A stretch of DNA of 64,000 bases from an uncultured Acidobacteriota bacterium (GCA_963723965.1 CAVRSV010000012.1:658675-722674); one strand, 5' to 3'; shown: positions 51,626-62,353, numbered from the stretch's first letter. Notes: generated from the sequence alone by a model not told the origin. A program made the numbers and translations.

Positions 51626-52495
51626 TCACCGGGACGAAGGAGGGAGTGGGCTCTTATGGGTACGGGCTGCAGTCGGGCTGGTCCCGGCCCGTCCGGTGAG
51701 AGGATCCGGATGCCCCGCTTCGACGACGCTGCACTGCGCCTCCTCCAACAGGAAGGGCATGTAGTAGCCGCCATTGAAAGTCTTGTCCGTGGAGATCCGT
51801 CCTCGGGCCAGAACAACGGAACCCAACGGAACGTCCGCGCTCGTCGTGGCGACCAATTCACCGCCCCGATCGTCCAGGAGGTGGATCCAGTTTCTCCCCA
51901 TGATGTTCCGGTTCACCCGAGCAACCAGACCGACGACACTCACCCGTTTTCCGGAAAAGACCGCCGTCCTTGCTTCAATGTCGTGAATGGTCTCGGTGTC
52001 CGGCAGGATGGGGAGAGATCCTTTCTTCGGAGCCGGCAGAGTCCGCTGGTTGCTTCGCGAGCTCCGGGGAACCGCAGGATGGCCGGAAGGCAGGCCCTTG
52101 ACAGTGCTGACGGCGACGGGCGTGCGTTCCTTAACTCGAATGCGATCAACGAAGCGGATCTCAGGAAACCGCCTGGAGAGCGACGGGCTTTGGAAGTCGC
52201 GCATGAGCAACCCCTTCTGGTACTCGACAATGTCGCCGACAGCAACACCGGAAATCGTGGCAGCCAGCCAGAAGGAGCGATGATCCGCATTCACGCAGAG
52301 GTACCGGTAATCTCCGACATCAATCACCTCGGTGACCGAGCCTTCGAGCCAACCCGGACTCGAACCCCCCTCGGACCCGCTGGGCGGCGGAGCAATCGTC
52401 ACCTGCTTCGCCGGAACGGAAACGGAAGAGGAGCAGCCCGCCAGGAGCGCCGCCGCCAGCGCAACACACGCCAGTTCCACACACTGTCTCTTCAT
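51626..52495 (-). CDS. Lipoprotein with two OB-fold-like domains
   Basis: LLAGC lipobox; GSVTEVIDVGDYRYL; LMRDFQSPSLSRRF; LPSGHP; NIMGRNWIHL. Confidence 0.65.
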   Translation of the reverse strand: MKRQCVELACVALAAALLAGCSSSVSVPAKQVTIAPPPSGSEGGSSPGWLEGSVTEVIDVGDYRYLCVNADHRSFWLAATISGVAVGDIVEYQKGLLMRDFQSPSLSRRFPEIRFVDRIRVKERTPVAVSTVKGLPSGHPAVPRSSRSNQRTLPAPKKGSLPILPDTETIHDIEARTAVFSGKRVSVVGLVARVNRNIMGRNWIHLLDDRGGELVATTSADVPLGSVVLARGRISTDKTFNGGYYMPFLLEEAQCSVVEAGHPDPLTGRAGTSPTAARTHKSPLPPSSR

Positions 52496-52524
52496 CTCAT
52501 TTTTCCTTCCCGCCTGGCCCCGCT

Positions 52525-55477
52525 TCAATCCCCCCTGCCGTTGGGATGGCAGCTGTAGCAGGCTTGACTCTCGTAGACATAGCCTCCGACTTCTCTGTGA
52601 TGGCGATCCGTGCTGGCCCGGTCGTGTTCATGGCAGTCGATGCAGCTGAACTGCAGATAGTTTGACGAGAGATGGCAGTCGGAACAGGCCAGCCCCCGGT
52701 GAGCCCCGCTGTTGATGGGAAAGCTCGAGTGATCGAACTGGGCCCCTTCCCAGGTCGTCGCCTGGGTCCCGTGGCAGGTCGCACAGTCCGTGGGGAAACC
52801 GGCCGCGGCGTGATTCGGGTCGGTCGTCTGATCGTACTCCCGGCGATGACAGCTGACACAGTCCGAGGCCAGGCCCTGGTAGACGCCGTTCGTATGGCAG
52901 TCGGCACAGGCCGCCGTCTGGTGGCGGCCCTGGAGCGGGAAGCTCGAGTGATCGAACTCGGCTCCTTCCCAGGTCGTCGCCTGGGTCCCGTGGCAGGTCG
53001 TACAGTCCGTGGGGAAACCGGCCGCGGCGTGATTCGGGTCGGTCGTCTGATCGTACTCCCGGCGATGACAGCTGACACAGTCCGAGGCCAGGCCCTGGTA
53101 GACGCCGTTCGTATGGCAGTCGGCACAGGCCGCCGTCTGGTGGCGGCCCTGGAGGGGGAAGCTCGAGTGATCGAACTCGGCTCCTTCCCAGGTCGTCGCC
53201 TGGGTCCCGTGGCAGGTCGCACAGTCCGTGGGGAAACCGGCCGCGGCGTGATTCGGGTCGGTCGTCTGATCGTACTCCCGGCGATGGCAGCTGACACAGT
53301 CCGAGGCCAGGCCCTGGTACACGCCGTTCGTGTGGCAGTCGGCACAGGCCGCCGTCTGATGGCGGCCCTGGAGGGGGAAGCTCGAGTGATCGAACTCGGC
53401 TCCCTCCCAGGTCGTCGCCTGGGTCCCGTGGCAGGTCGCACAGTCCGTCGGGAAACCGGCCGTCGGCGTGATTCGGGTCGGTCGTCTGATCGTACTCCCG
53501 GCGATGGCAGCTGACACAGTCCGAGGCCAGGCCCTGGTACACGCCGTTCGTATGGCAGTCGGCACAGGCGGCCGTCTGATGGCGGCCCTGGAGGGGGAAG
53601 CTCGAGTGATCGAACTCGGCTCCCTCCCAGGTCGTCGCCTGATCCCCGTGGCAGGTCACGCAGTCCGTCGGGAACCCGGCTTCCACGTGATTCGGATCCG
53701 TGGCTGCGTCGAAGTCTTTGCGATGGCAGCTGACGCAGTCCGAGGCCAGGCCCTGGTAGACGCCGTTCGTGTGGCAGTCGGCACAGGCGGCCGTCTGGTG
53801 GCGGCCCTGGAGGGGGAAGCTCGAGTGATCGAACTCGGCTCCCTCCCAGGTCGTCGCCTGATCCCCGTGGCAGGTCACGCAGTCCGTCGGGAACCCGGCT
53901 TCCACGTGGTTCGGATCCGTGGCGGCGTCGAAGTCTTTGCGATGGCAGCTGACGCAGTCCGAGGCCAGGCCCTGGTAGACGCCGTTCGTGTGGCAGTCGG
54001 CACAGGCCGCGGTCTGGTGGCGGCCCTGGAGGGGGAAGCTCGAGTGATCGAACTCGGCTCCCTCCCAGGTCGTCGCCTGATCCCCGTGGCAGGTCACGCA
54101 GTCCGTCGGGAACCCCGCTTCCACGTGATTCGGATCCGTGGCGGCGTCGAAGTCTTTGCGATGGCAGCTGACACAGTCCGAGGCCAGGCCCTGGTAGACG
54201 CCGTTCGTGTGGCAGTCGGCACAGGCCGCGGTCTGATGGCGGCCCTGGAGCGGGAAGCTCGAATGATCGAACTCGGCTCCCTCCCACGTCGTCGCCTGAT
54301 CCCCGTGGCAGGTCACGCAGTCCGTCGGGAACCCCGCTTCCACGTGATTCGGATCCGTGGCGGCGTCGAAGTCTTTGCGATGGCAGCTGACGCAGTCCGA
54401 GGCCAGGCCCTGGTAGACGCCGTTCGTGTGGCAGTCGGCACAGGCCGCGGTCTGATGGCGGCCCTGGAGCGGGAAGCTCGAATGATCGAACTCGGCTCCC
54501 TCCCAGGTCGTCGCCTGATCCCCGTGGCAGGTCACGCAGTCCGTCGGGAACCCCGCTTCCACGTGATTCGGATCCGTGGCGGCGTCGAAGTCTTTGCGAT
54601 GGCAGCTGACACAGTCCGAGGCCAGGCCCTGGTAGACGCCGTTCGTGTGGCAGTCGGCACAGGCCGCCGTCTGATGGCGGCCCTGGAGCGGGAAGCTCGA
54701 GTGATCGAACTCGGCTCCCTCCCAGGTCGTCGCCTGATCCCCGTGGCAGGTCACGCAGTCCGTTGGGAACCCGGCTTCCACGTGATTCGGATCCGTGGCT
54801 GCGTCGAAGTCTTTGCGATGGCAGCTGACACAGTCCGAGGCCAGGCCCTGGTAGACGCCGTTCGTGTGGCAGTCGGCACAGGCGGCGGTCTGATGGCGGC
54901 CCTGGAGGGGGAAGCTCGAGTGATCGAACTCGGCTCCCTCCCACGTCGTCGCCTGATCCCCGTGGCAGGTCACGCAGTCCGTCGGGAAACCCGCTTCCAC
55001 GTGATTCGGATCCGTGGCGGCGTCGAAGTCTTTGCGGTGGCAGCTGACGCAATCGGTCGACTGGCCTTGGAAACCGGCGGCGTGACAATCCGTACACTCG
55101 ATCAGCCGATGGGTTCCCTCCAGCCGGAAGCCGGTTACCGTTTCATGATTCCAGCGATCCGGAGAAACCGGTTTCCAGCCGGTCGCGTCGTGGCAATCCC
55201 CACAAACGATACCCAGCGCCAGTGAATATCGATCATCCTGTCGACGATCCCAGTGGCAGCTCTCGCAATTCGTCGGCGTACCCTCGAGTTGCCCGTTGAT
55301 GTGGCACTCCTGACAGGCGACGGTACGGTGCCTGCCGGTCAAGGGGAAGCTGGTTTGGTCATGCTCCTGAACGTTGCGGCGGGCGCCTTCCTGGCCCGAC
55401 CTGAGGGGGGACGGCGCCGCCGCCAGGCCGACGAGACTCCCCAGGGCCACGAGAGCGATCATCCAACCTCTAAGCAC
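52525..55477 (-). CDS. Giant secreted multiheme c-type cytochrome, 39 CxxCH motifs (~983 aa); one extra base at 53463 splits it into ORFs 52628..55477 and 52525..53565
   Basis: Signal peptide; 6 N-terminal CxxCH, 10 repeats with 3 each, 3 C-terminal; span is 2953 nt (3n+1). Confidence 0.92.
52724..55052 (-). repeat. Intragenic tandem array of near-identical 219-bp (73-aa) tri-heme units
   Basis: Anchor ctcga(g/a)tgat at 52724, 52943, 53162, 53381, 53601, 53820, 54039, 54258, 54477, 54696, 54915 (period 219, once 220). Confidence 0.95.
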
Positions 55478-56933
55478 GCACTTCCTCCCAGCCGGTGTTG
55501 GTCATCGGGACTTCTTTGGTGACCATGGAGACGCCGACCTTCTCCAGGAAGTCTCTGGGTGAAGACCCACCCAGGAATGCAAAGACGTAGTCGTTCCCGA
55601 GCGTGCGGCACTCCGCGCTCGCGCATTCGACCCGTACCTCTCCGGGGAGAATCTCGCACACCTGGCTTCCCAGAAGAAGTCGAACCTGACCGGCGGCGAC
55701 TGCTGTTTCGAGGGCCTCCCGGTTCTTCTCACGGATCCGCGAAAACTCGGTCCGCCGATACGAGAGTGTCACTTCGTTGGTCGTCTCCTTTCCGAGGGAA
55801 ACGGCAGCTTCGACGGCGGAATCCCCTCCCCCCACCACGAGGATGCGCGCCGAGCGATACTGGGCGGCATCGCTCAAGGTGTAGAGAACTTTGGACAGGT
55901 CATGGCCGGGAACGGAGAGTTGATTCGGCGTTCCCCGCTTCCCGATGGCAAGGATGACTTTCAGGCTCCTGTATTCGCCCTTCGGAGTGCGGGTCACGAA
56001 TGTACCGTCGGGTTGGCGCTCGACATCTTCAACTCGTTCGAATTCGTGCACGATGAGCCCGGATGTCTCGATGATGGTCTGCCAGACACTGAGCAGTGCC
56101 TCCTTGGGCGCATCGGAGATCCACAGAGAACCGTACAAGGGAATCTTGATCGGCTCCGCCATGACCACCTTGCGGTTGGGATAACGGCGAATCGTGTTGG
56201 CCAGATTGCCCTGCTCCAGGATCACGAATTGGAGTCCGGCGGCTTTGGCGGCCAGTCCGGCTGACAACCCGGCGGGGCCTGAGCCGACGATCACGAGGTC
56301 GAGAACTCCCTCACTGCGCTCGTGGCTCTCGAGGATCCGGTCCACAACCAGCTGCCCCTCCGAGATGGCGTTCTTGATCAGTCCCAGACCACCCAGTTCA
56401 CCCACGGCGTACAGCCCGGGCTGATCGGTCTGAAAATCGTCGTCGATCTGCGGGACTTCGACCCTCCGTCCCCCGCCGCTCCCCCCCAGCTGGCAAGCGC
56501 CTGTCGGGCAGACCTCGGCACAGGTCCCGGCACTCGTGCAGGCATTCACATTCACGACCGCGGACTTTCCGGCGACGATCTCGAGGACTCCTTCGTTGCA
56601 GGCGTTGACACAGGCGCTGCAGCCGATGCAGACGTCCTGATCGATGATCGGGACGATTCGTCCGGCAGCATTCCCATTGGCCTCGCGGGCCTTCTTGAGT
56701 GTCCAGAGCGCCATGGGAACGCCGCACCGGTCGCAGAAGGCCGAATCGACCGCCACCGGGCTCTTGCATTGCGGACAGGGCCGCGTCGCTTTGGAGGGCG
56801 CCGGCTTCGGGGAGGCCCCTTCGGCCCGCCGATTCATGGAGGACAAATGGAAATGTACCGGCACCGTGGCCAAAAGTGCGAGCACGAGGAAGATTCCGAA
56901 CCACAGGAGATATTCCATTTCGACTTCTTTCAC
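55470..56933 (-). CDS. Membrane-anchored ferredoxin / FAD-NAD(P)H oxidoreductase (TrxR/YpdA-like)
   Basis: N-terminal TM helix; CPQC...CDRC; CIGCSACVNAC and CTSAGTCAEVCP; PGLYAVGE; GSGPAG; GGGDSA...YRR. Confidence 0.85.
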   Translation of the reverse strand: MKEVEMEYLLWFGIFLVLALLATVPVHFHLSSMNRRAEGASPKPAPSKATRPCPQCKSPVAVDSAFCDRCGVPMALWTLKKAREANGNAAGRIVPIIDQDVCIGCSACVNACNEGVLEIVAGKSAVVNVNACTSAGTCAEVCPTGACQLGGSGGGRRVEVPQIDDDFQTDQPGLYAVGELGGLGLIKNAISEGQLVVDRILESHERSEGVLDLVIVGSGPAGLSAGLAAKAAGLQFVILEQGNLANTIRRYPNRKVVMAEPIKIPLYGSLWISDAPKEALLSVWQTIIETSGLIVHEFERVEDVERQPDGTFVTRTPKGEYRSLKVILAIGKRGTPNQLSVPGHDLSKVLYTLSDAAQYRSARILVVGGGDSAVEAAVSLGKETTNEVTLSYRRTEFSRIREKNREALETAVAAGQVRLLLGSQVCEILPGEVRVECASAECRTLGNDYVFAFLGGSSPRDFLEKVGVSMVTKEVPMTNTGWEEVRA

Positions 56934-58645
56934 ATCCTGAACATGAACCGGACGAAGAACAGGTCCTCACTGCGCAGCTGCCCGAAAGTGTGTTCCTCCT
57001 GAAAGGACACGGCCAGCGCTCGGCCGAGGGCGAGGAACAGCTCGTTGAAGAGCGTATGTCGAGACGCGAGGTGGACGATTTCCGGAATGCCCCCAACGCT
57101 GTTGAAACGCAGCCCGTTGAAGGACGTGGAGTAGCTGGTGTTCCAGGAATGCCGGCCCAGCGTCTTGCTGACGGAGACGAAGAGGGAGTTGGATTCCGAT
57201 GTGTCGCCCCGGTTCAGATTGTAGTTCGCGTAGAGAGAGATCCCGGTCTCGGCGAATTGGCCGGTGGAGATCCCCATCTGTGTCGTGTGGTTCCGGATCG
57301 CCTGATCCCTGCGCTCGCTGACCCGTTCTCCGACGTAGACCCGCCAGCCATTCCGGAGCCGGTAACGCAGGCGCGCCCCGTATTGCATGTTGTAGTAGAA
57401 GCGTTCCAGCTCGCTGAAGCTCGCCAGCGGATCCGCCCCGTTTTCGAGCAGGAACCGATGGAAGTCGAGGCCTTTTCCGGAGCTGAAGTTCGCAATGACG
57501 TCGAAATCCTGCAGGAAATCGACGCGGGTGTTGAGGAAGAGTCGAGAGAGTCGATCGGCGGAACGTACGTGGCGGCCGAGTTCGAACTCCGCGTTCCCGT
57601 AAACGACGGCTCGTTCTCCGATGGGTGACAGACCATTGAGATACACGAATCGCCGTTCGCTCTTTCCCGAGTAGAGCAGTTCGTTGTAGCTCACCGAGAA
57701 GCTCTGCGCCCGACGACCAAAATAGCGGGCGAAGACTCCGTATTTAAGGAAGCCGGTCTCCAGACCCGTGCCATAGAGATCGGGCTTGAGGCCGGCATAG
57801 CCTCCGACAAGAACGTTCGACTTCGGGCGGTAGCCGCCTAGAGCTCCGAGCAGTTCCCCGATTCCGGCCGTGTCGTAGAGGTTCATCTGGCCCATCGCCA
57901 GAGAGAAAGGCTGTCTGGCGTCGTCGTAGACGAGCCGGGCATCGTAAATGCTCAGGATGTGACGCGAGGATTCCCCCAGAGTCAGCCGGTCCCTGAGGTC
58001 AAACTGGAGATTCCAGCCGGCCCCGGGCTCCCCAATCACCATGCGGGCGCGGTTGCTGAGCTGATTCACCATTCCCGCCTGGTTCCGGATGCCGTACCAG
58101 TCGGAGGAAAGCCTCCCGCGAACCTTCAAAGGAGGCTTCGGCTTCTCGGGGATCATGAACGGCGGCAGTCCGATCGGGTGTTCGACGGGCTCCAGCTTGC
58201 GCTCCCCTCCGGCGGGACTCTTCTCCGCCACGACTTCGGCGTGCTCGCTGATCTCGGCAAGTTCGAGCACGACCTCGACGCGACTCGTCTCGCCGGCTGA
58301 GATCTCCAGCGGCTCGCGGCGATACTCCTTGAATCCGGGCGAATTCACCGCCAGTCTGTAGGAACCGGCCGCCGCGACCGTGAAGGAGAAGGTCCCCAGG
58401 TCTCCGGTTACCGTCTTCCAGCCTTCAGTTCCGCCGACCGGCTGCAATCGTACATCGGCCCCGGGGATGAGGGCCCCGGAGCCATCTTTGACGACTCCTT
58501 TCAGCAATGCCGTTCCGTCGTCCGGCGTCAGCGGCGCAGCGATTCCGGCCCAGGTCAACAGACTGAGCACAGCCCCGGCGATCCGGAGCCTGTGCCGGCC
58601 CGGCCGGGCTCCCTTCCGTCTCGGCATCGGTCGTGTCGACTTCAC
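56930..58645 (-). CDS. Putative outer-membrane beta-barrel porin with N-terminal carboxypeptidase-regulatory-like domain
   Basis: Signal peptide; LKGVVKDGSGALIPGADV...GSYRLAVNSPGF; alternating aromatic-rich strands; C-terminus LFFVRFMFRM; GTG 58645 overlaps upstream stop. Confidence 0.7.
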   Translation of the reverse strand: MKSTRPMPRRKGARPGRHRLRIAGAVLSLLTWAGIAAPLTPDDGTALLKGVVKDGSGALIPGADVRLQPVGGTEGWKTVTGDLGTFSFTVAAAGSYRLAVNSPGFKEYRREPLEISAGETSRVEVVLELAEISEHAEVVAEKSPAGGERKLEPVEHPIGLPPFMIPEKPKPPLKVRGRLSSDWYGIRNQAGMVNQLSNRARMVIGEPGAGWNLQFDLRDRLTLGESSRHILSIYDARLVYDDARQPFSLAMGQMNLYDTAGIGELLGALGGYRPKSNVLVGGYAGLKPDLYGTGLETGFLKYGVFARYFGRRAQSFSVSYNELLYSGKSERRFVYLNGLSPIGERAVVYGNAEFELGRHVRSADRLSRLFLNTRVDFLQDFDVIANFSSGKGLDFHRFLLENGADPLASFSELERFYYNMQYGARLRYRLRNGWRVYVGERVSERRDQAIRNHTTQMGISTGQFAETGISLYANYNLNRGDTSESNSLFVSVSKTLGRHSWNTSYSTSFNGLRFNSVGGIPEIVHLASRHTLFNELFLALGRALAVSFQEEHTFGQLRSEDLFFVRFMFRM

Positions 58646-60540
58646 CAATCGCTGATCCTCCATGAGTCGAACGTGTGACAGCGCTCGCAGGCTGCATAGC
58701 TGGCCCGATGAGGCGATGCGTGGCAATCCAGGCACGCCGTATCGGGAGAATCGGCCTTGTTGGGGACCCGGGTCCGGGAAACGAACTCCAGCACCGTCTT
58801 CTGCTGCCACGGGACTCGCTCGTGGCAGCGCTCACAGGGAAGTTGAGCGTGCCGTCCCAGAAGGGGAAAGGCCGTCTTGAAGTGATTGAAGAACTGGACG
58901 GTGAATCCCTTCGTGCTGTGACACCGCGCGCAGTCCGCGGGCTGCCGGTACTGATGGGGGTCTGCGTGACAGCCGGAGCATTGAAGGGAGAGGGGGTGAT
59001 AGCGCCGAGCCCTTCTTCCCACGCCGGCCGGCCCGACCTCCGCCGCGGGGTGGCATTGGACACAGGCGACACCCGCGTGCAGTCCCGTCAGCGGGAAACC
59101 ACTCTTCTGATGATCGAACCGGGTGACGGGAAGAAAGCGATCCATGTTGTGACAGCGCTCGCAATTGCCCGCCAACTGGCCCGCATGCGGGTCCTGATGA
59201 CAACCTTTGCAGGCATGGTTCAGTGGTGCAAAGCGGATCGCGACTCCGGCGCCCCCCGGGAACCGTCCCTGTTCCTGATGGTGACATTCTGCGCACGGAG
59301 TCTGGAGATGGGCCCCTTCGAGAGGGAAGTCGGACCCCGAATCGTGGGAGAAGCTCAGCGTCGATTCACCAAATCCGAACGTGGAGTGACAGGCTTGGCA
59401 CTGGTCCCCAAGTTGTCCCAGGTGAACGTCCCGATGGCAGCTGTCACAGGCCAGGCTCAAAGGCCGGTAACGGATGAACCGGACGGCCTGTCCGTCGCTT
59501 ACCGCCTCCTCTGTCCGGTGACACCGGGCACATTCGACGTCCAGGTGTTTTCCGGTGAGATGAAGACGCGCCTGCTGATGATTGAACGTCGTCTTCTCAA
59601 AGCCCTCCTCGACATGACAGGCGGAACAGTCCTGGCTGAACTGCCCCCGGTGGGGGTCTTGTACGTGGCAGTTCCTGCATTCGCCGAAAGCGATTGCCTT
59701 GAATCGATTCTCCGGGTGACAGCTCCGGCACGGCACCCCGGCATGCTTCCCGCGGAGCGGAAAAGAGGAGTCCTCGCCGTGAAATCGGAGACGGGCCTGT
59801 CGGACTCGCCAGTTCGAGACACTGTGACACTGCGCGCAGTCGGAACCCAGGGACGGCTGGTGCGCGTCGCTGTGACAGTCGGTACAGCTCGAAAAGGCGA
59901 CGCCCTTCCACTGACCGCCCCGATGACACTTCGAACACTCGAGATCGCGGTGCGCACCGCGCAGGTGGAAGGCCGCCTGCTCGTGGTCGAACCGGACCTC
60001 GGTGAACTTCCGCTCCACGCCGTGACAACGCCCGCAGTCGCCTCCCAGGCTCCCCTTGTGAACATCTTCATGACAGGTGACGCAGGTGCGGTCTTTCAGG
60101 AGAAATGACCGGCCGGAGACACGCTTCACCGACCGCTCCGGGGAATGGCAGGATTCGCAGCGCCCGACTCGTGCGTGATAGCCGGTCAGGGGGTAACCGG
60201 TTTCACTGTGATCGAAGTGCGCCGGATCCCATGGGAGCAGGGAGGCCTCTTCCCCGCGGTGTTCGGGATGACAGGTCGCACACTGCTCGCCGCGGGTTCG
60301 ATGGAGCCCTCGCCGATCGTGGATGCGGGCGGCGATTTGGCGGTGGCAGGCCAGGCACTTGCCGTCGTCGACACCCTGGCCCGGGGTGTGACAGCGATCG
60401 CAGCCGTCCAAGCCTTCCACATTCTGGTGGGCCCGACTCAGCGCGCCGGGAGAAACCAGCGACTCGAGTCCCTGCGCGGCGCCGGATCCGGAGAATACCA
60501 TCAGTGAAAGCCCCAGCACGAGCGCTCCTTTCTTCACCAA
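58642..60540 (-). CDS. Secreted multiheme c-type cytochrome, 24 CxxCH motifs
   Basis: Signal peptide; SPGALSRAH; 24 CxxCH counted; recurrent FDH...FPLxGxH units. Confidence 0.93.
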   Translation of the reverse strand: MVKKGALVLGLSLMVFSGSGAAQGLESLVSPGALSRAHQNVEGLDGCDRCHTPGQGVDDGKCLACHRQIAARIHDRRGLHRTRGEQCATCHPEHRGEEASLLPWDPAHFDHSETGYPLTGYHARVGRCESCHSPERSVKRVSGRSFLLKDRTCVTCHEDVHKGSLGGDCGRCHGVERKFTEVRFDHEQAAFHLRGAHRDLECSKCHRGGQWKGVAFSSCTDCHSDAHQPSLGSDCAQCHSVSNWRVRQARLRFHGEDSSFPLRGKHAGVPCRSCHPENRFKAIAFGECRNCHVQDPHRGQFSQDCSACHVEEGFEKTTFNHQQARLHLTGKHLDVECARCHRTEEAVSDGQAVRFIRYRPLSLACDSCHRDVHLGQLGDQCQACHSTFGFGESTLSFSHDSGSDFPLEGAHLQTPCAECHHQEQGRFPGGAGVAIRFAPLNHACKGCHQDPHAGQLAGNCERCHNMDRFLPVTRFDHQKSGFPLTGLHAGVACVQCHPAAEVGPAGVGRRARRYHPLSLQCSGCHADPHQYRQPADCARCHSTKGFTVQFFNHFKTAFPLLGRHAQLPCERCHERVPWQQKTVLEFVSRTRVPNKADSPDTACLDCHASPHRASYAACERCHTFDSWRISDW

Positions 60541-61406
60541 TTGACTCCATAGCCGAAGTAGGTGGCCACCGCGATGTGAATCAGAATCAGGACCGAGGCC
60601 AGGATCGTGAAGGGGCGGTGGAAGATGTGCCAGTACGAGAACAGCCGCTGGCTCGCCTCGAGGACGGCGAGCTTCTTGAGGAGCCGCCTCTGCTTGAGGA
60701 CGAGCCGAACGACCCGGACCCGCCGTCGAAGACCCTTGCCCTGAATTCCGGAGATCCGCCAGGCCTGATGCACATGAGAGAAGCCCTTAAGATCGTCTGC
60801 GATGACCACGGCGACCGTCATCACGAGCCCGCGCCGCTGCTGGCGCACTCTCGCCAGATACTGCTCGAGCGCCTCCAGCAGCCGGTCCCGGCTGGAATCC
60901 GATCCGAGTTCGGCAACCCACTCGGAGAGCTGCTGTTCGATCTGGGCCAGGGACATCTCGTTCCCTTTCCGGGTGCGCGGGATCTTCGAGTAGAGATAGC
61001 GGCCGATGATGCCCGAAAGGACCATGGCCATCGTCGAGTAGAAGCCGATTGCGGCCAGTCCTCCGAGTTTTCCGGTAGTGTGCAGCGCGACCAGGGCGGG
61101 CCCTCCGAGCCCAAGGAAGATATGGACCTGGAGCCACTGCTTTTGATTCCCGAACCTCTGAAGGAAATGGGACCGCTTGCGAATCGTGTACAGGAATGTC
61201 AGCAGCATCATGCTTCCACCGACGATTCCCAGGAGTCGTCCCTCGCCACCTGAAGGCTTCAGCAGGGAGTGGAGCGGATGAAATGCACGATCGGGGAGAG
61301 GTGTCAGATAGTAGCCCATCCCGTGGGCCACGAGAGTGCCGAAGGCGACCAGATAGGCCGTCACAATCAGCCCCAGACAGGTTTTGAACACTCCGATTCT
61401 CAACAA
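60534..61406 (-). CDS. Inner-membrane protein with conserved His (cytochrome b / ferric reductase-like)
   Basis: TM helices; WLQVHIFLG, VALHT, WHIFHRP, ILIHI; SGIIGRYLY. Confidence 0.75.
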   Translation of the reverse strand: MLRIGVFKTCLGLIVTAYLVAFGTLVAHGMGYYLTPLPDRAFHPLHSLLKPSGGEGRLLGIVGGSMMLLTFLYTIRKRSHFLQRFGNQKQWLQVHIFLGLGGPALVALHTTGKLGGLAAIGFYSTMAMVLSGIIGRYLYSKIPRTRKGNEMSLAQIEQQLSEWVAELGSDSSRDRLLEALEQYLARVRQQRRGLVMTVAVVIADDLKGFSHVHQAWRISGIQGKGLRRRVRVVRLVLKQRRLLKKLAVLEASQRLFSYWHIFHRPFTILASVLILIHIAVATYFGYGVNW

Positions 61407-61888
61407 TCGTCGGCTTTCTTCACGCGGTGAAGCCGGACCCTACACGGCGGGTCTCCGTCAAGCGGCCGGGTCGGCCCCCGTTTCGGGATCCGCACCTCAC
61501 CTCCGATATCGCAGTCGGCGTCAACGCCGGCTTGGGCGCTCACACCCTTCGCTACTGGCCCGGTGAAAGAGACAAGCTGGAACGATCCGTCCCGCACCAG
61601 CTCCGCTGGGTAGGTCACAGGGTTGAGCTTCTCGATTGCAGTCGGCATGCCACTGTTGGCTGGAGCCACTCAACCTACTCAATTTCTGCTATTTACGCGG
61701 GCGTCAGGCTCCTTTTGCCAACCCTCGATGTCCGCCCGCTACGGGTTACGCCGCCCCATCCGGTGGGACATTCGGACCCACACCGACCCACTCGGATGAA
61801 TTCCCCCGGGTCGACGGGCTGATTGGAAAGCCGCACCGTGAAGCTGCTATGCTGGCTGGAACGAAGCTCACACCAGGAAGCACTCGTC

Positions 61889-62353
61889 GTGAAAAAAGTT
61901 CTCTTGTCCCTTGCGGTCTTCTGCCTGACTTCCCTGTCACAGGTCAGCGCAGACCCGAATCCCCAGGCGTTGCGTCAAGTCACCAGCCAGATCCTCTGTA
62001 CCTGCGGTTGCTCCAACATGCTCGTCTCGAGTTGCGAGTGCAGCAAGGCGGCCGAGATGACGAAGGAAGCCGCCGCCCTGCTGGACGAAGGCAAGTCCGA
62101 GAAGGAGGTCCTGGCGACCTTCGAAAAGGAGTACGGCCCGACGGTTCTGGCGGCCCCGCAAGCACAGGGATTCAATCTCATCGGCTGGATCATGCCGTTC
62201 ATTGCCCTGGGGATGGGCAGCCTCGTCGTGGCAGTGGTCTATCGGAGGCTGAAGTCTCCGCCTCCTCCGGCCGAAGCGGATAGCGCCCTCGCAGAGTCTG
62301 CGGTCACAGACGAGCATCTGCGGCAGCAACTCGACGAAGAGCTCCGACTCTAG
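61889..62353 (+). CDS. ccmH: Cytochrome c biogenesis protein CcmH/NrfF-like
   Basis: Signal peptide; ILCTCGC...CECS; YGPTVLAAP...GFNLIGWIMP; start placed at GTG 61889. Confidence 0.8.
   Translation: MKKVLLSLAVFCLTSLSQVSADPNPQALRQVTSQILCTCGCSNMLVSSCECSKAAEMTKEAAALLDEGKSEKEVLATFEKEYGPTVLAAPQAQGFNLIGWIMPFIALGMGSLVVAVVYRRLKSPPPPAEADSALAESAVTDEHLRQQLDEELRL

What the first reader, a model, noticed from the sequence alone, without database searches (positions are those of the whole stretch)
51626..61406. Complete trans-envelope electron conduit: PCC3-like porin-cytochrome operon with 63 predicted c-hemes and a built-in NAD(P)H oxidoreductase
Seen: six co-oriented genes, the first five joined by overlapping stop/start codons: His-rich membrane protein, 24-CxxCH cytochrome, beta-barrel, TM-ferredoxin-FAD/NAD(P)H enzyme, 39-CxxCH cytochrome, then an OB-fold-like lipoprotein; ccmH lies divergently. 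Known: porin-cytochrome complexes (MtrCAB, Pcc) carry out extracellular electron transfer, and the bioinformatically defined PCC3 type has an inner-membrane protein, two large multiheme cytochromes and a porin. Inference: a self-contained path NAD(P)H - FAD - FeS - b-hemes - periplasmic cytochrome - porin - extracellular cytochrome, possibly bypassing the quinone pool, in a probable Acidobacterium. Direction of electron flow cannot be told from sequence.
Basis: partly seen in the sequence, partly recalled or inferred. Interest (0 to 1): 0.9.

Follow-up and report, generated by a model that had tools for sequence, protein, structure and literature searches.

The report
Acidobacterial porin-cytochrome cluster with NAD(P)H flavoenzyme
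Six translationally coupled genes in an Acidobacteriota genome look like a wire of heme proteins from the cell interior to the cell surface, fed by an NAD(P)H-type flavoenzyme and not, as in known systems, by a quinol dehydrogenase; one cytochrome gene carries a one-base frameshift in this assembly.

Summary
The six minus-strand genes are real and overlap by 4-8 nt.

- **A** (290 aa) has the exact motifs published for the PCC3/PCC4 inner-membrane protein, with four invariant His.
- **B** has 24 CxxCH.
- **C** models as a ~22-strand beta-barrel.
- **D** is a membrane-anchored Zn-ribbon, 2xFeS and TrxR/YpdA-like NAD(P)H flavoprotein.
- **E** has "39 hemes" only if two reading frames are added together. 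One extra base at window 53463 splits it into 26 + 13 motifs. The same-genus orthologue is intact.
- **F** is a lipoprotein of no known family.

New here:

- The barrel family always sits between two multiheme cytochromes.
- All 10 of 10 loci with a 23/24-heme upstream cytochrome carry A and/or D. Of 46 loci with a small upstream cytochrome, 45 carry neither.
- A and D are linked in 11 Acidobacteriota families, in shuffled gene orders.
- Some relatives fuse the FeS domain to the A domain.

Most likely this is an outward NAD(P)H-to-surface electron conduit. It is a new variant of porin-cytochrome systems. Protein locations, cofactors and direction are inferred, not shown.

The parts
60534..61406 (-). 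Gene A: 290-aa inner-membrane protein, putative di-heme b transmembrane electron carrier (PCC3/PCC4-type IMP)
   Evidence: No Pfam or NCBIfam hit at E<=0.01. Motifs W91-x3-H95-x13-H109, S131-G-x-x-G135 and W259-x3-H263-x13-H277 are seen in the translation. H95, H109, H263, H277, W259, G132 and G135 are invariant in 69 sequences. The model has pLDDT 91.4, with five long membrane helices and a helical insert at 153-247. Weak sub-threshold hits among 69 members: DUF4405 in 47, Ferric_reduct in 33, Ni_hydr_CYTB in 19.
58642..60540 (-). Gene B: 632-aa multiheme cytochrome c with 24 CxxCH in eight diverged triheme units; inferred periplasmic wire
   Evidence: 24 CxxCH in triplets. Cytochrome_C7 E 1.2e-29. 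N-terminal Sec-type signal by eye. No DNA tandem repeat.
56930..58645 (-). Gene C: 571-aa outer-membrane protein with signal peptide, CarboxypepD_reg domain (residues 48-128) and a ~22-strand beta-barrel (residues 175-570)
   Evidence: Pfam; AlphaFold2 model; Foldseek matches only to outer-membrane barrels; 140 homologues at E<=1e-3, and the only names sources give are 'hypothetical protein'.
55470..56933 (-). Gene D: 487-aa membrane-anchored cytoplasmic flavoenzyme: TM helix, Cys4 ribbon, two FeS motifs, TrxR/YpdA-like FAD and NAD(P)H domains
   Evidence: Pyr_redox_3 E 1.3e-43 and Fer4 families. Best PDB relatives are YpdA/Bdr 7a76 and 7a7b (E 1.6e-30 and 6.8e-29), then TrxR and TrxR-type FNR. 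Invariant C53/56/67/70, C102/105/108/112, C132/138/142, G217-x-G219-x-x-G222, G368-G-G-D-S and Y392-R393 in 64 sequences. No Cys in the flavin domain between residues 240 and 360 (sequence).
52525..55477 (-). Gene E: tandem-repeat multiheme cytochrome c, 39 CxxCH in two frames (26 + 13), broken by a 1-nt insertion; inferred surface wire
   Evidence: Cytochrome_C7 E 1.2e-37 and 2.8e-17 for the two pieces. The same-genus orthologue is one 914-aa frame with 36 CxxCH.
53463..53463 (-). Extra base (A on the minus strand) that shifts the frame of E; it lies in the first unit of the second repeat subtype
   Evidence: The unit starting at 53614 is 220 nt and all others are 219; sequence read.
52717..55048 (.). 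219-nt tandem repeat array inside E (10.6 copies, 96% matches); each unit encodes 73 aa with three CxxCH and six His
   Evidence: Tandem Repeats Finder; unit alignment.
51626..52528 (-). Gene F: 300-aa putative lipoprotein of unknown family, found only in the closest relatives
   Evidence: No Pfam or NCBIfam hit. Lipobox LAGC by eye. Found with this query only in L015 and L016 among 68 loci. The Atlas gave no named family.
61823..62353 (+). ccmH (cytochrome c maturation), divergent neighbour
   Evidence: PF03918 E 1.2e-17.

Best explanation
This is a conserved Acidobacteriota electron conduit across the whole cell envelope.

Proposed path:
1. D, anchored to the cytoplasmic face by one helix, oxidises NAD(P)H on FAD and passes electrons through its FeS clusters.
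2. The electrons reach two b-type hemes held by the four invariant His of A (H95/H263 near the cytoplasm, H109/H277 near the periplasm).
3. B, a 24-heme chain of eight triheme units, carries them across the periplasm.
4. C, a ~22-strand barrel, lets the heme chain cross the outer membrane.
5. E, a chain of about 13 nearly identical triheme units, takes them to the surface and on to Fe(III), humics or a partner cell.

The net flow is outward. It acts as an electron sink that need not pass through the quinone pool.

Shown here: the genes, motifs, folds and gene linkage. Inferred: cofactors, contacts between the proteins, their locations, the direction of flow and independence from quinones. In this assembly E is out of frame. 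I think a consensus error is more likely (about 2 in 3) than a real pseudogene.
For: 1. **Core module.** In 68 loci fetched by homology to C, the barrel gene is flanked by an upstream multiheme gene (5-24 CxxCH) and a downstream one (mostly multiples of three, 9-27 CxxCH, or 36 where D lies in between) wherever the contig allows.
2. **Coupling of the long upstream cytochrome to A/D.** All 10 of 10 loci with an upstream cytochrome of 20 or more hemes hold A and/or D. Of 46 loci with a 4-14-heme upstream cytochrome, 45 hold neither, and the exception (L018) has the upstream ORF cut by the contig start. 12 further loci could not be classed: 10 with the upstream cytochrome not found or cut off, 2 with no barrel ORF found.
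3. **A-D linkage in 201 phylum genomes.** 16 of 24 strong A hits (E<=1e-50) have a D-like gene within 8 kb. 15 of 18 strong D hits (E<=1e-80) have A within 8 kb, and 2 of the 3 misses start at contig ends. The 16 loci fall in 11 families. Orders seen are A-D, D-A, divergent, and separated by cluster genes.
4. **Fusions.** In L083 one 869-aa ORF joins cNMP-binding, 2x4Fe-4S and the A-like domain, and the next ORF joins c-hemes, Fer4 and Pyr_redox_3. L084 has the same two-ORF layout by profile hits. In L091 a Pyr_redox_3 + cNMP + Fer4 ORF directly precedes an A-like ORF and a 10-heme cytochrome.
5. **Membrane anchor of D.** 17 of 18 D homologues inspected keep an N-terminal hydrophobic segment followed by basic residues.
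6. **Motifs of D.** The FAD and NAD(P)H motifs are invariant and the flavin domain has no redox-active CxxC.
7. **His content of E.** Each unit has six His for three CxxCH, as expected for bis-His hemes of the c7 type (sequence; the ligation and the low potential are inferred from recalled knowledge of c7 cytochromes).
8. **Published precedent.** The papers read already propose a transmembrane redox role for this type of membrane protein, and report an FeS gene beside it in PCC4.
Against: - No experiment exists for any member of these families.
- E is frameshifted here, and again at two other places in the same-family genome G005. The conduit may therefore be broken in this strain.
- The A model has no Foldseek match in the PDB (best E 0.72) and no profile match to PDB sequences. 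Its link to di-heme cytochromes b rests on motifs and sub-threshold Pfam hits.
- The second FeS motif of D has only three invariant Cys.
- Neither B nor E has a lipobox, and nothing here shows that E is outside the cell.
- 8 of 24 strong A hits have no D within 8 kb. Several of these lie at contig ends.
- Related genomes are not independent samples.
Confidence: 0.5

Rival explanations
1. The porin-cytochrome conduit is the same, but A is a quinol:cytochrome c oxidoreductase that exchanges electrons with the quinone pool, as originally proposed for PCC3. D is then an accessory enzyme, for example one that pre-reduces, repairs or regulates the system, and is not the main electron entry point.
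For: He et al. 2017 hypothesised a quinone-active cytochrome b role for the membrane protein (passage read). Members of the A family give weak hits to Ni_hydr_CYTB, a quinone-reactive cytochrome b family (19 of 69). 8 of 24 strong A hits have no D nearby.
Against: The linkage runs both ways (15 of 18 strong D hits have A). Gene order is shuffled but the linkage is kept in 11 families. An FeS domain is fused directly to the A-like domain, which argues for direct electron hand-over. No quinone-site motif was identified, and none was searched for.
Confidence: 0.2
2. The conduit runs inward. Electrons from Fe(II), reduced humics, a cathode or a syntrophic partner enter through E, C and B. A and D use them to reduce NAD(P)+ or a cytoplasmic acceptor.
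For: PCC3 was first found in Fe(II) oxidisers and modelled as an uptake path. Multiheme chains are reversible in principle (established knowledge).
Against: Reducing NAD(P)+ (about -0.32 V) from Fe(II) is uphill. Moving electrons inward also works against a membrane potential that is negative inside, and no energy-coupling element is seen in A or D (inference). Bis-His c7-type hemes are usually low-potential (recalled).
Confidence: 0.07
3. This is not extracellular electron transfer. Both cytochromes stay in the periplasm as an electron store or as a reductase for soluble compounds that enter through C, which is an ordinary substrate porin. A+D then work as a NOX-like NAD(P)H-driven periplasmic reductase system.
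For: No lipobox and no localisation evidence for E. Foldseek's best matches for C include ordinary substrate channels such as chitoporin, OccK/OprD and AlgE. PCC4 is described as having only periplasmic cytochromes.
Against: The barrel gene lies strictly between two multiheme genes in nearly all of 68 loci. The repeat number of the downstream cytochrome varies widely (3 to 13 units). One relative has a single 51-heme cytochrome beside barrel, D and A (L088). All of this fits a wire threaded through the barrel better than a diffusion porin.
Confidence: 0.13
4. In this particular genome the cluster is a decaying remnant. The frameshift in E is real, so the outer part of the wire is truncated to 26 hemes followed by a nonsense tail.
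For: The extra base is in the assembled sequence. The orthologue in G005 is also out of frame at two places.
Against: All other genes are intact with coupled starts. The same-genus orthologue is one clean frame with all units 219 nt. One G005 shift is a lost G in a G run, a typical consensus error. Contigs of runs X2 and X4 that match 53402-53460 run on into letters that, read by eye, keep the frame (tables 7 and 8).
Confidence: 0.33

Closest known systems
PCC3 porin-cytochrome gene cluster (He et al. 2017, Front Microbiol 8:1584; bioinformatic definition in Proteobacteria)
   Same: A ~300-aa inner-membrane protein with five helices, SGXXG and two WX3HX13H motifs. A 21/24/27-heme 'periplasmic' cytochrome (B has 24). 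A larger repeat-built second cytochrome. A beta-barrel gene in the same cluster.
   Different: The barrel has about 22 strands, against up to 42 described. The D flavoenzyme is not mentioned in the main text (FAD, ferredoxin and pyridine nucleotide each occur 0 times). The cytochromes here are c7-type triheme repeats. The host is Acidobacteriota. Sequence homology to the reference PCC3 proteins was not testable here.
PCC4 cluster, subgroup II (same paper)
   Same: The inner-membrane protein has the same motifs, and an FeS-cluster gene lies directly upstream of it. In one genome the two were annotated as one gene.
   Different: PCC4 has three small periplasmic cytochromes (4, 5 and 10 hemes) and no extracellular one. 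Its FeS protein is a pfam13247 type, and no flavin domain is described in the main text.
MtrCAB of Shewanella and OmbB-OmaB-OmcB / Ext clusters of Geobacter (recalled knowledge)
   Same: The logic of a periplasmic multiheme cytochrome, a sheath-like outer-membrane barrel and a surface cytochrome.
   Different: C hits no Pfam family beyond CarboxypepD_reg. The known systems are fed by quinol dehydrogenases (CymA, ImcH, CbcL; recalled). They are not fed by an NAD(P)H flavoenzyme.
NOX / FRE ferric-reductase type transmembrane electron exporters, and MsrQ with Fre (recalled knowledge)
   Same: Cytoplasmic NAD(P)H, a flavin, then two stacked b hemes on His pairs spaced 13 residues apart, moving electrons outward across the membrane.
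   Different: Here the membrane and flavin parts are separate genes. The flavoprotein is TrxR/YpdA-like with two FeS clusters. The acceptor is a multiheme cytochrome. The Ferric_reduct Pfam hit is below threshold (14.2 bits against a cutoff of 28) and no fold match was found.
YpdA/Bdr bacillithiol-disulfide reductase and TrxR-type ferredoxin-NADP+ reductases (PDB 7a76, 7a7b, 3ab1 and others)
   Same: They are the best solved relatives of D's flavin domain (E 1.6e-30 to about 1e-11).
   Different: D adds a membrane helix, a Cys4 ribbon and a ferredoxin domain. TIGR04018 scores 172 bits, below its cutoff of 340.

Membership tests
PCC3 (He et al. 2017) | Outer-membrane beta-barrel gene next to a multiheme cytochrome gene | tested here: met
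   The model has about 22 strands and pLDDT 83.7. Foldseek matched only outer-membrane barrels. B ends 4 nt inside C.
PCC3 (He et al. 2017) | Conserved inner-membrane protein of ~300 aa with five TM helices, SGXXG on TM4 and WX3HX13H on TM3 and TM5 | tested here: met
   A is 290 aa. The motifs lie at 91-109, 131-135 and 259-277 and are invariant in 69 sequences. The model places them on helices 88-109, 116-140 and 249-283.
PCC3 (He et al. 2017) | Periplasmic multiheme cytochrome with about 21-27 hemes | tested here: met
   B has 24 CxxCH, within the 21, 24, 27 range. Periplasmic location itself cannot be tested with these tools.
PCC3 (He et al. 2017) | Extracellular multiheme cytochrome with many repeat-borne hemes | tested here: inconclusive
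   E has 39 CxxCH in 219-nt repeats, but in two frames. Its location cannot be tested.
PCC3 (He et al. 2017) | Sequence homology to the reference PCC3 proteins of Sideroxydans and Leptothrix | not testable with these tools
   No reference sequence could be fetched by name.
MtrB/PioB-type porins | Match to the curated porin family model | tested here: not met
   The Pfam scan of C at E<=0.01 lists only CarboxypepD_reg and CarbopepD_reg_2. NCBIfam lists none.
Di-heme cytochrome b / ferric-reductase transmembrane superfamily (Ferric_reduct, Ni_hydr_CYTB, DUF4405) | Significant match to a family model or to a solved fold | tested here: inconclusive
   A itself hits PF01794 at E 0.048, 14.2 bits against a cutoff of 28. 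Among 69 members, DUF4405 hits 47 (best 5.7e-6), Ferric_reduct 33 (best 1.5e-4) and Ni_hydr_CYTB 19. Foldseek has no match at E<0.7 and the profile has no PDB sequence match.
NOX/FRE enzymes | FNR-like FAD/NADPH dehydrogenase domain fused C-terminally to the heme domain | tested here: not met
   The flavoprotein is a separate gene of the Pyr_redox_3 / TrxR type. The resemblance is functional only.
YpdA family (TIGR04018) | Score above the curated cutoff | tested here: not met
   172.4 bits against a cutoff of 339.9. The Pyr_redox_3 superfamily is met: 149.8 bits against a cutoff of 30.
Cytochrome c7-type triheme repeat cytochromes | Match to PF14522 with repeated CxxCH triplets | tested here: met
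   B scores 102.4 bits and the first frame of E 127.9 bits, against a cutoff of 24.8. The triplet spacing is seen.

The most novel reading that the evidence does not exclude
A+D form a split, NOX-like NAD(P)H:cytochrome c oxidoreductase that exports electrons across the inner membrane without using quinones. Together with a periplasm-spanning 24-heme wire, a barrel and a surface wire of up to about 39 hemes in one polypeptide, this gives Acidobacteriota (Aminicenantes included) a non-respiratory electron sink. That sink would link fermentation directly to iron, humics or partner cells. The same A-plus-FeS-flavoprotein module, in several fused forms, would be a general, unrecognised inner-membrane entry point for multiheme cytochrome systems in many phyla.
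Probability: 0.33. Interest if true: 0.8.

Novelty: new variant of a known kind. Interest (0 to 1): 0.62.

Why it matters
Known extracellular electron transfer systems of Gram-negative bacteria draw electrons from the quinone pool. How the bioinformatically defined PCC3/PCC4 systems connect to metabolism is an open question.

This cluster, together with the linkage and fusion data from relatives, points to a specific and testable answer. A di-heme membrane protein would be fed by a membrane-anchored NAD(P)H/FeS flavoenzyme.

It would also assign a function to two large unannotated families:
- the A family, with 2486 representative clusters at E<=1e-3;
- the D-type architecture, with more than 2500 proteins at E<=1e-10.

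It also offers single-polypeptide heme wires of tunable length, built from 3 to 13 triheme units.

Tried and rejected
- **Complex prediction of A with D.** No verdict: score 0.21 against a mark of 0.32, and the controls were not run. This is not evidence either way.
- **Read laying.** Only Logan contigs were available and they are fragmentary in the repeat. In X1, the best holder, no laid contig covers 53440-53459. X3 covers only 53501-53677. The frameshift is therefore not settled.
- **The look-up of sequencing runs.** No RNA holder is listed, so expression could not be examined.
- **Promoter and terminator scan.** 1 promoter-like site and 3 terminator-like sites, fewer than in shuffles. Uninformative on co-transcription.
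- **Search for fused forms of A ('longer').** Nothing at E<=1e-5, which is weak evidence by the tool's own note.
- **Pfam on seven long hits.** One A-half joined to c7 cytochrome domains (P0247) and one A-half joined to a partial Pyr_redox_3 (P0233). These may be gene-call artefacts and are not used.
- **Atlas for F.** No named family.
- **Atlas for A.** An 805-aa Pyr_redox + Fer4 cluster aligns structurally to A (TM 0.75). I keep this as a lead only, because I could not fetch those sequences.
- **Programmed frameshifting in E.** Rejected. There is no slippery site, and the same-genus orthologue needs no shift.
- **A as a NOX/FRD member.** Rejected as a membership claim and kept as an analogy.
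- **Literature.** Seven searches (as listings, plus the papers read) found no description of this acidobacterial cluster or of a flavoenzyme partner for the PCC3/PCC4 membrane protein.
  - Read as passages: PMC5566968 (also its whole section 16), PMC9900912, PMC6344600, PMC7399161, PMC11323493.
Supplementary Tables 3-6 and Figure S4 of PMC5566968 list the 'other redox proteins' beside such membrane proteins and could reduce the novelty claim.
- **The search of earlier findings.** It was closed.

Full report
**Observation**

The window holds six minus-strand ORFs:

| Gene | Coordinates |
|---|---|
| A | 60534-61406 |
| B | 58642-60540 |
| C | 56930-58645 |
| D | 55470-56933 |
| E | 52525/52628-55477 |
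| F | 51626-52528 |

Each start lies inside the previous gene's end. The overlaps are 7 nt (or 4 if B starts at the GTG at 60537), 4, 4, 8 and 4 nt. A 108-nt gap follows F. CcmH is divergent at 61823-62353 (PF03918, E 1.2e-17), with an unassigned 131-aa ORF between it and A. A consensus scan for promoters and terminators was uninformative.

**The cytochromes**

B has 24 CxxCH, arranged as eight triplets about 70-75 residues apart. It matches Cytochrome_C7 at E 1.2e-29.

The ORF from 55477 has 26 CxxCH and then runs about 277 codons in a wrong frame. The remaining 13 CxxCH are in another frame that ends at 52525.

E contains a 219-nt tandem array (52717-55048, 10.6 copies, 96% matches). Each unit encodes 73 residues with three CxxCH and six His. 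One unit, starting at 53614, is 220 nt. Compared with the next three units it has an extra A at window 53463 on the minus strand. It is the first unit of the second repeat subtype.

Comparison with relatives:
- The same-genus genome G002 has the orthologue as one 914-aa frame with 36 CxxCH, and all units are 219 nt.
- The same-family genome G005 has it in three frames (21 + 17 + 7 CxxCH in overlapping ORFs) through two 1-nt deletions, one of them in a G run.

Public runs gave only fragmentary contigs. Contigs of X2 and X4 that match 53402-53460 continue with letters of the other repeat subtype which, read by eye, keep the frame (tables 7 and 8). I rate a consensus error at about two in three. 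The count of 63 hemes depends on that.

**The barrel**

C has a Sec-type N-terminus (by eye) and a CarboxypepD_reg domain (E 4.4e-16).

With an alignment of 63 homologues, AlphaFold2 gave mean pLDDT 83.7 and about 22 long strands between residues 175 and 570. Foldseek found 321 PDB matches at E<=0.001. All the listed ones are outer-membrane barrels (usher pores, chitoporin, OccK/OprD, AlgE, BtuB) at TM 0.24-0.39, so there is no close solved relative.

Homologues number 140 at E<=1e-3 among the 8000 candidates scored. The only names that sources give them are 'hypothetical protein', and most are about 420-450 aa without the N-terminal domain.

**The inner-membrane protein**

A has no curated family. 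It carries W91-x3-H95-x13-H109, S131-G-x-x-G135 and W259-x3-H263-x13-H277. This is exactly the signature published for the conserved inner-membrane protein of PCC3 and PCC4 (passages read).

A full scan of 1.84 billion representatives gave 2486 relatives at E<=1e-3 and 143 at E<=1e-30. In 69 of them H95, H109, H263, H277, W259, G132 and G135 are invariant.

The model (pLDDT 91.4) has helices at 2-34, 54-83, 88-109, 116-140 and 249-283, plus a helical insert at 153-247. The basic loops at 74-90 and in the insert suggest that both face the cytoplasm. That puts H95/H263 towards the cytoplasm and H109/H277 towards the periplasm (inference).

No PDB fold or sequence match was found. Members give consistent but sub-threshold hits to DUF4405 (47 of 69), Ferric_reduct (33 of 69) and Ni_hydr_CYTB (19 of 69).

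**The flavoenzyme**

D has the following parts:
- an N-terminal hydrophobic helix followed by basic residues;
- four invariant Cys (53, 56, 67, 70);
- one canonical Cx2Cx2Cx3C motif (102-112);
- a second FeS motif with only three invariant Cys (132, 138, 142-P);
- two dinucleotide-binding motifs (G217-x-G-x-x-G and G368-G-G-D-S, with Y392-R393).

The flavin domain has no CxxC.

Its best solved relatives are YpdA/Bdr (E 1.6e-30), thioredoxin reductases and TrxR-type ferredoxin-NADP+ reductases. It is below the YpdA equivalog cutoff. More than 2500 proteins match D at E<=1e-10, and the sources name them only generically. 17 of 18 D homologues inspected keep the N-terminal hydrophobic segment.

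**Comparative evidence**

The cluster A-B-C-D-E-F is kept in the same order in G002 and G005. Their public records are titled uncultured Acidobacteriota.

I fetched 68 loci by homology to C, mostly labelled Aminicenantes or Acidobacteriota. They show the barrel gene between an upstream multiheme gene and a downstream one with 9-27 CxxCH, mostly in multiples of three. Two classes appear:
- All 10 of 10 loci with an upstream cytochrome of 20 or more hemes hold A and/or D.
- 45 of 46 loci with an upstream cytochrome of 4-14 hemes hold neither. The exception has the upstream ORF cut by the contig start.
- 12 loci could not be classed. In 10 the upstream cytochrome is missing or cut off, and 2 of those hold A and D. 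In the other 2 no barrel ORF was found.

In a sample of 201 genomes of the phylum:
- The A profile hit 47 genomes.
- 16 of 24 strong A hits have a D-like gene within 8 kb. These 16 fall in 11 families. The orders seen are A-D, D-A, divergent, or separated by other cluster genes.
- 15 of 18 strong D hits have A within 8 kb, and two of the misses sit at contig ends.

Ten further loci show the same parts in shuffled orders, with cytochromes of 19-51 hemes and distant barrel relatives. One has barrel-D-A and a single 51-heme cytochrome.

More distant relatives recombine the same domains:
- cNMP-binding + 2x4Fe-4S + A-like domain in one ORF. It is followed by an ORF with FHA, eight CxxCH, Fer4 and Pyr_redox_3.
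- Pyr_redox_3 + cNMP + Fer4 in one ORF, directly before an A-like ORF and a 10-heme cytochrome.

Related genomes are not independent. Still, keeping the linkage while the order is shuffled, together with the domain fusions, is the strongest support available here for direct electron hand-over from the FeS flavoenzyme to the membrane hemes.

**Mechanism and direction**

I read the system as NAD(P)H to FAD, to FeS clusters, to two b hemes, to the 24-heme periplasmic chain, through the barrel, and into the repeat cytochrome at the surface.

Outward flow is favoured for three reasons:
- NAD(P)+ reduction from environmental donors is uphill.
- Inward electron movement opposes a membrane potential that is negative inside.
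- A and D show no coupling device.

This is inference. Bis-His c7-type hemes, suggested by six His per three CxxCH, usually have low potentials (recalled). Such a path would dissipate energy, which suits an electron sink for fermenters. The genome has 23 ORFs of at least 100 aa with four or more CxxCH, including a second cluster on contig C7, but only one A and one C.

**Comparison with known systems**

The cluster meets the published layout and motif definition of PCC3. Homology to the reference proteins could not be tested, and it differs in three ways:
- barrel size;
- cytochrome type;
- the D gene. The main text of the defining paper does not mention it: FAD, ferredoxin and pyridine nucleotide each occur 0 times.

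PCC4 subgroup II has an FeS gene beside its membrane protein, which is a partial precedent. Searches of the held literature found no description of this acidobacterial system or of a flavoenzyme partner (passages). The supplements that list neighbouring redox genes were closed.

**Verdict**

The system is a new variant of porin-cytochrome conduits. All functional steps remain inferred.

The complex prediction gave no verdict.

Noticed in passing
L083 4313-10257 (G189) and L084 4152-10328 (G135): In L083 an 869-aa ORF joins cNMP-binding, 2x4Fe-4S and an A-like membrane domain. The next ORF (1084 aa) joins FHA, eight CxxCH, Fer4 and Pyr_redox_3. L084 has the same two-ORF layout (878 and 1142 aa) by profile hits. 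D-like hits 1.8-2.9 kb from weak A-like hits occur at 9 loci of the phylum sample.
   Followed up: partly
L091 6547-11984 (G119): A 791-aa ORF with Pyr_redox_3 + two cNMP-binding domains + Fer4 lies directly before a 275-aa A-like ORF and a 10-heme cytochrome. Cyclic-nucleotide control of such modules is possible.
   Followed up: partly
L088 6035-13398 (G094): The order is barrel, D, A and one 1252-aa cytochrome with 51 CxxCH. A single polypeptide may replace both B and E.
   Followed up: no
L013 4347-6561 (G002): The orthologue of F is split by about 1.4 kb that holds a 415-aa ORF without any Pfam hit. This may be an insertion.
   Followed up: partly
L014 7983-11349 (G005): The orthologue of E is in three frames through two 1-nt deletions, one in a run of G. 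Repeat cytochrome genes seem prone to consensus errors in these assemblies.
   Followed up: yes
window 60534-61406 (protein A): The Atlas structure search lists an 805-aa cluster (56 members, Myxococcota commonest) with Pyr_redox_2/3 and Fer4_10, part of which aligns to A at TM 0.75. This may be a full D+A fusion. The nearest feature clusters are in Gemmatimonadota and Verrucomicrobiota.
   Followed up: no
G000 contig C7, 154036-173181: A second group of ORFs with 5, 11, 8, 7 and 19 CxxCH lies elsewhere in the same genome. In all, 23 ORFs have four or more CxxCH.
   Followed up: no
window 61427-61822 (+): A 131-aa ORF without any Pfam family fills the gap between A and ccmH and ends where ccmH starts.
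   Followed up: no
window 55300-59300: Runs labelled soil, salt-marsh and marine-sediment metagenomes hold half or more of the sampled words (X1-X4). No RNA run is listed.
   Followed up: partly
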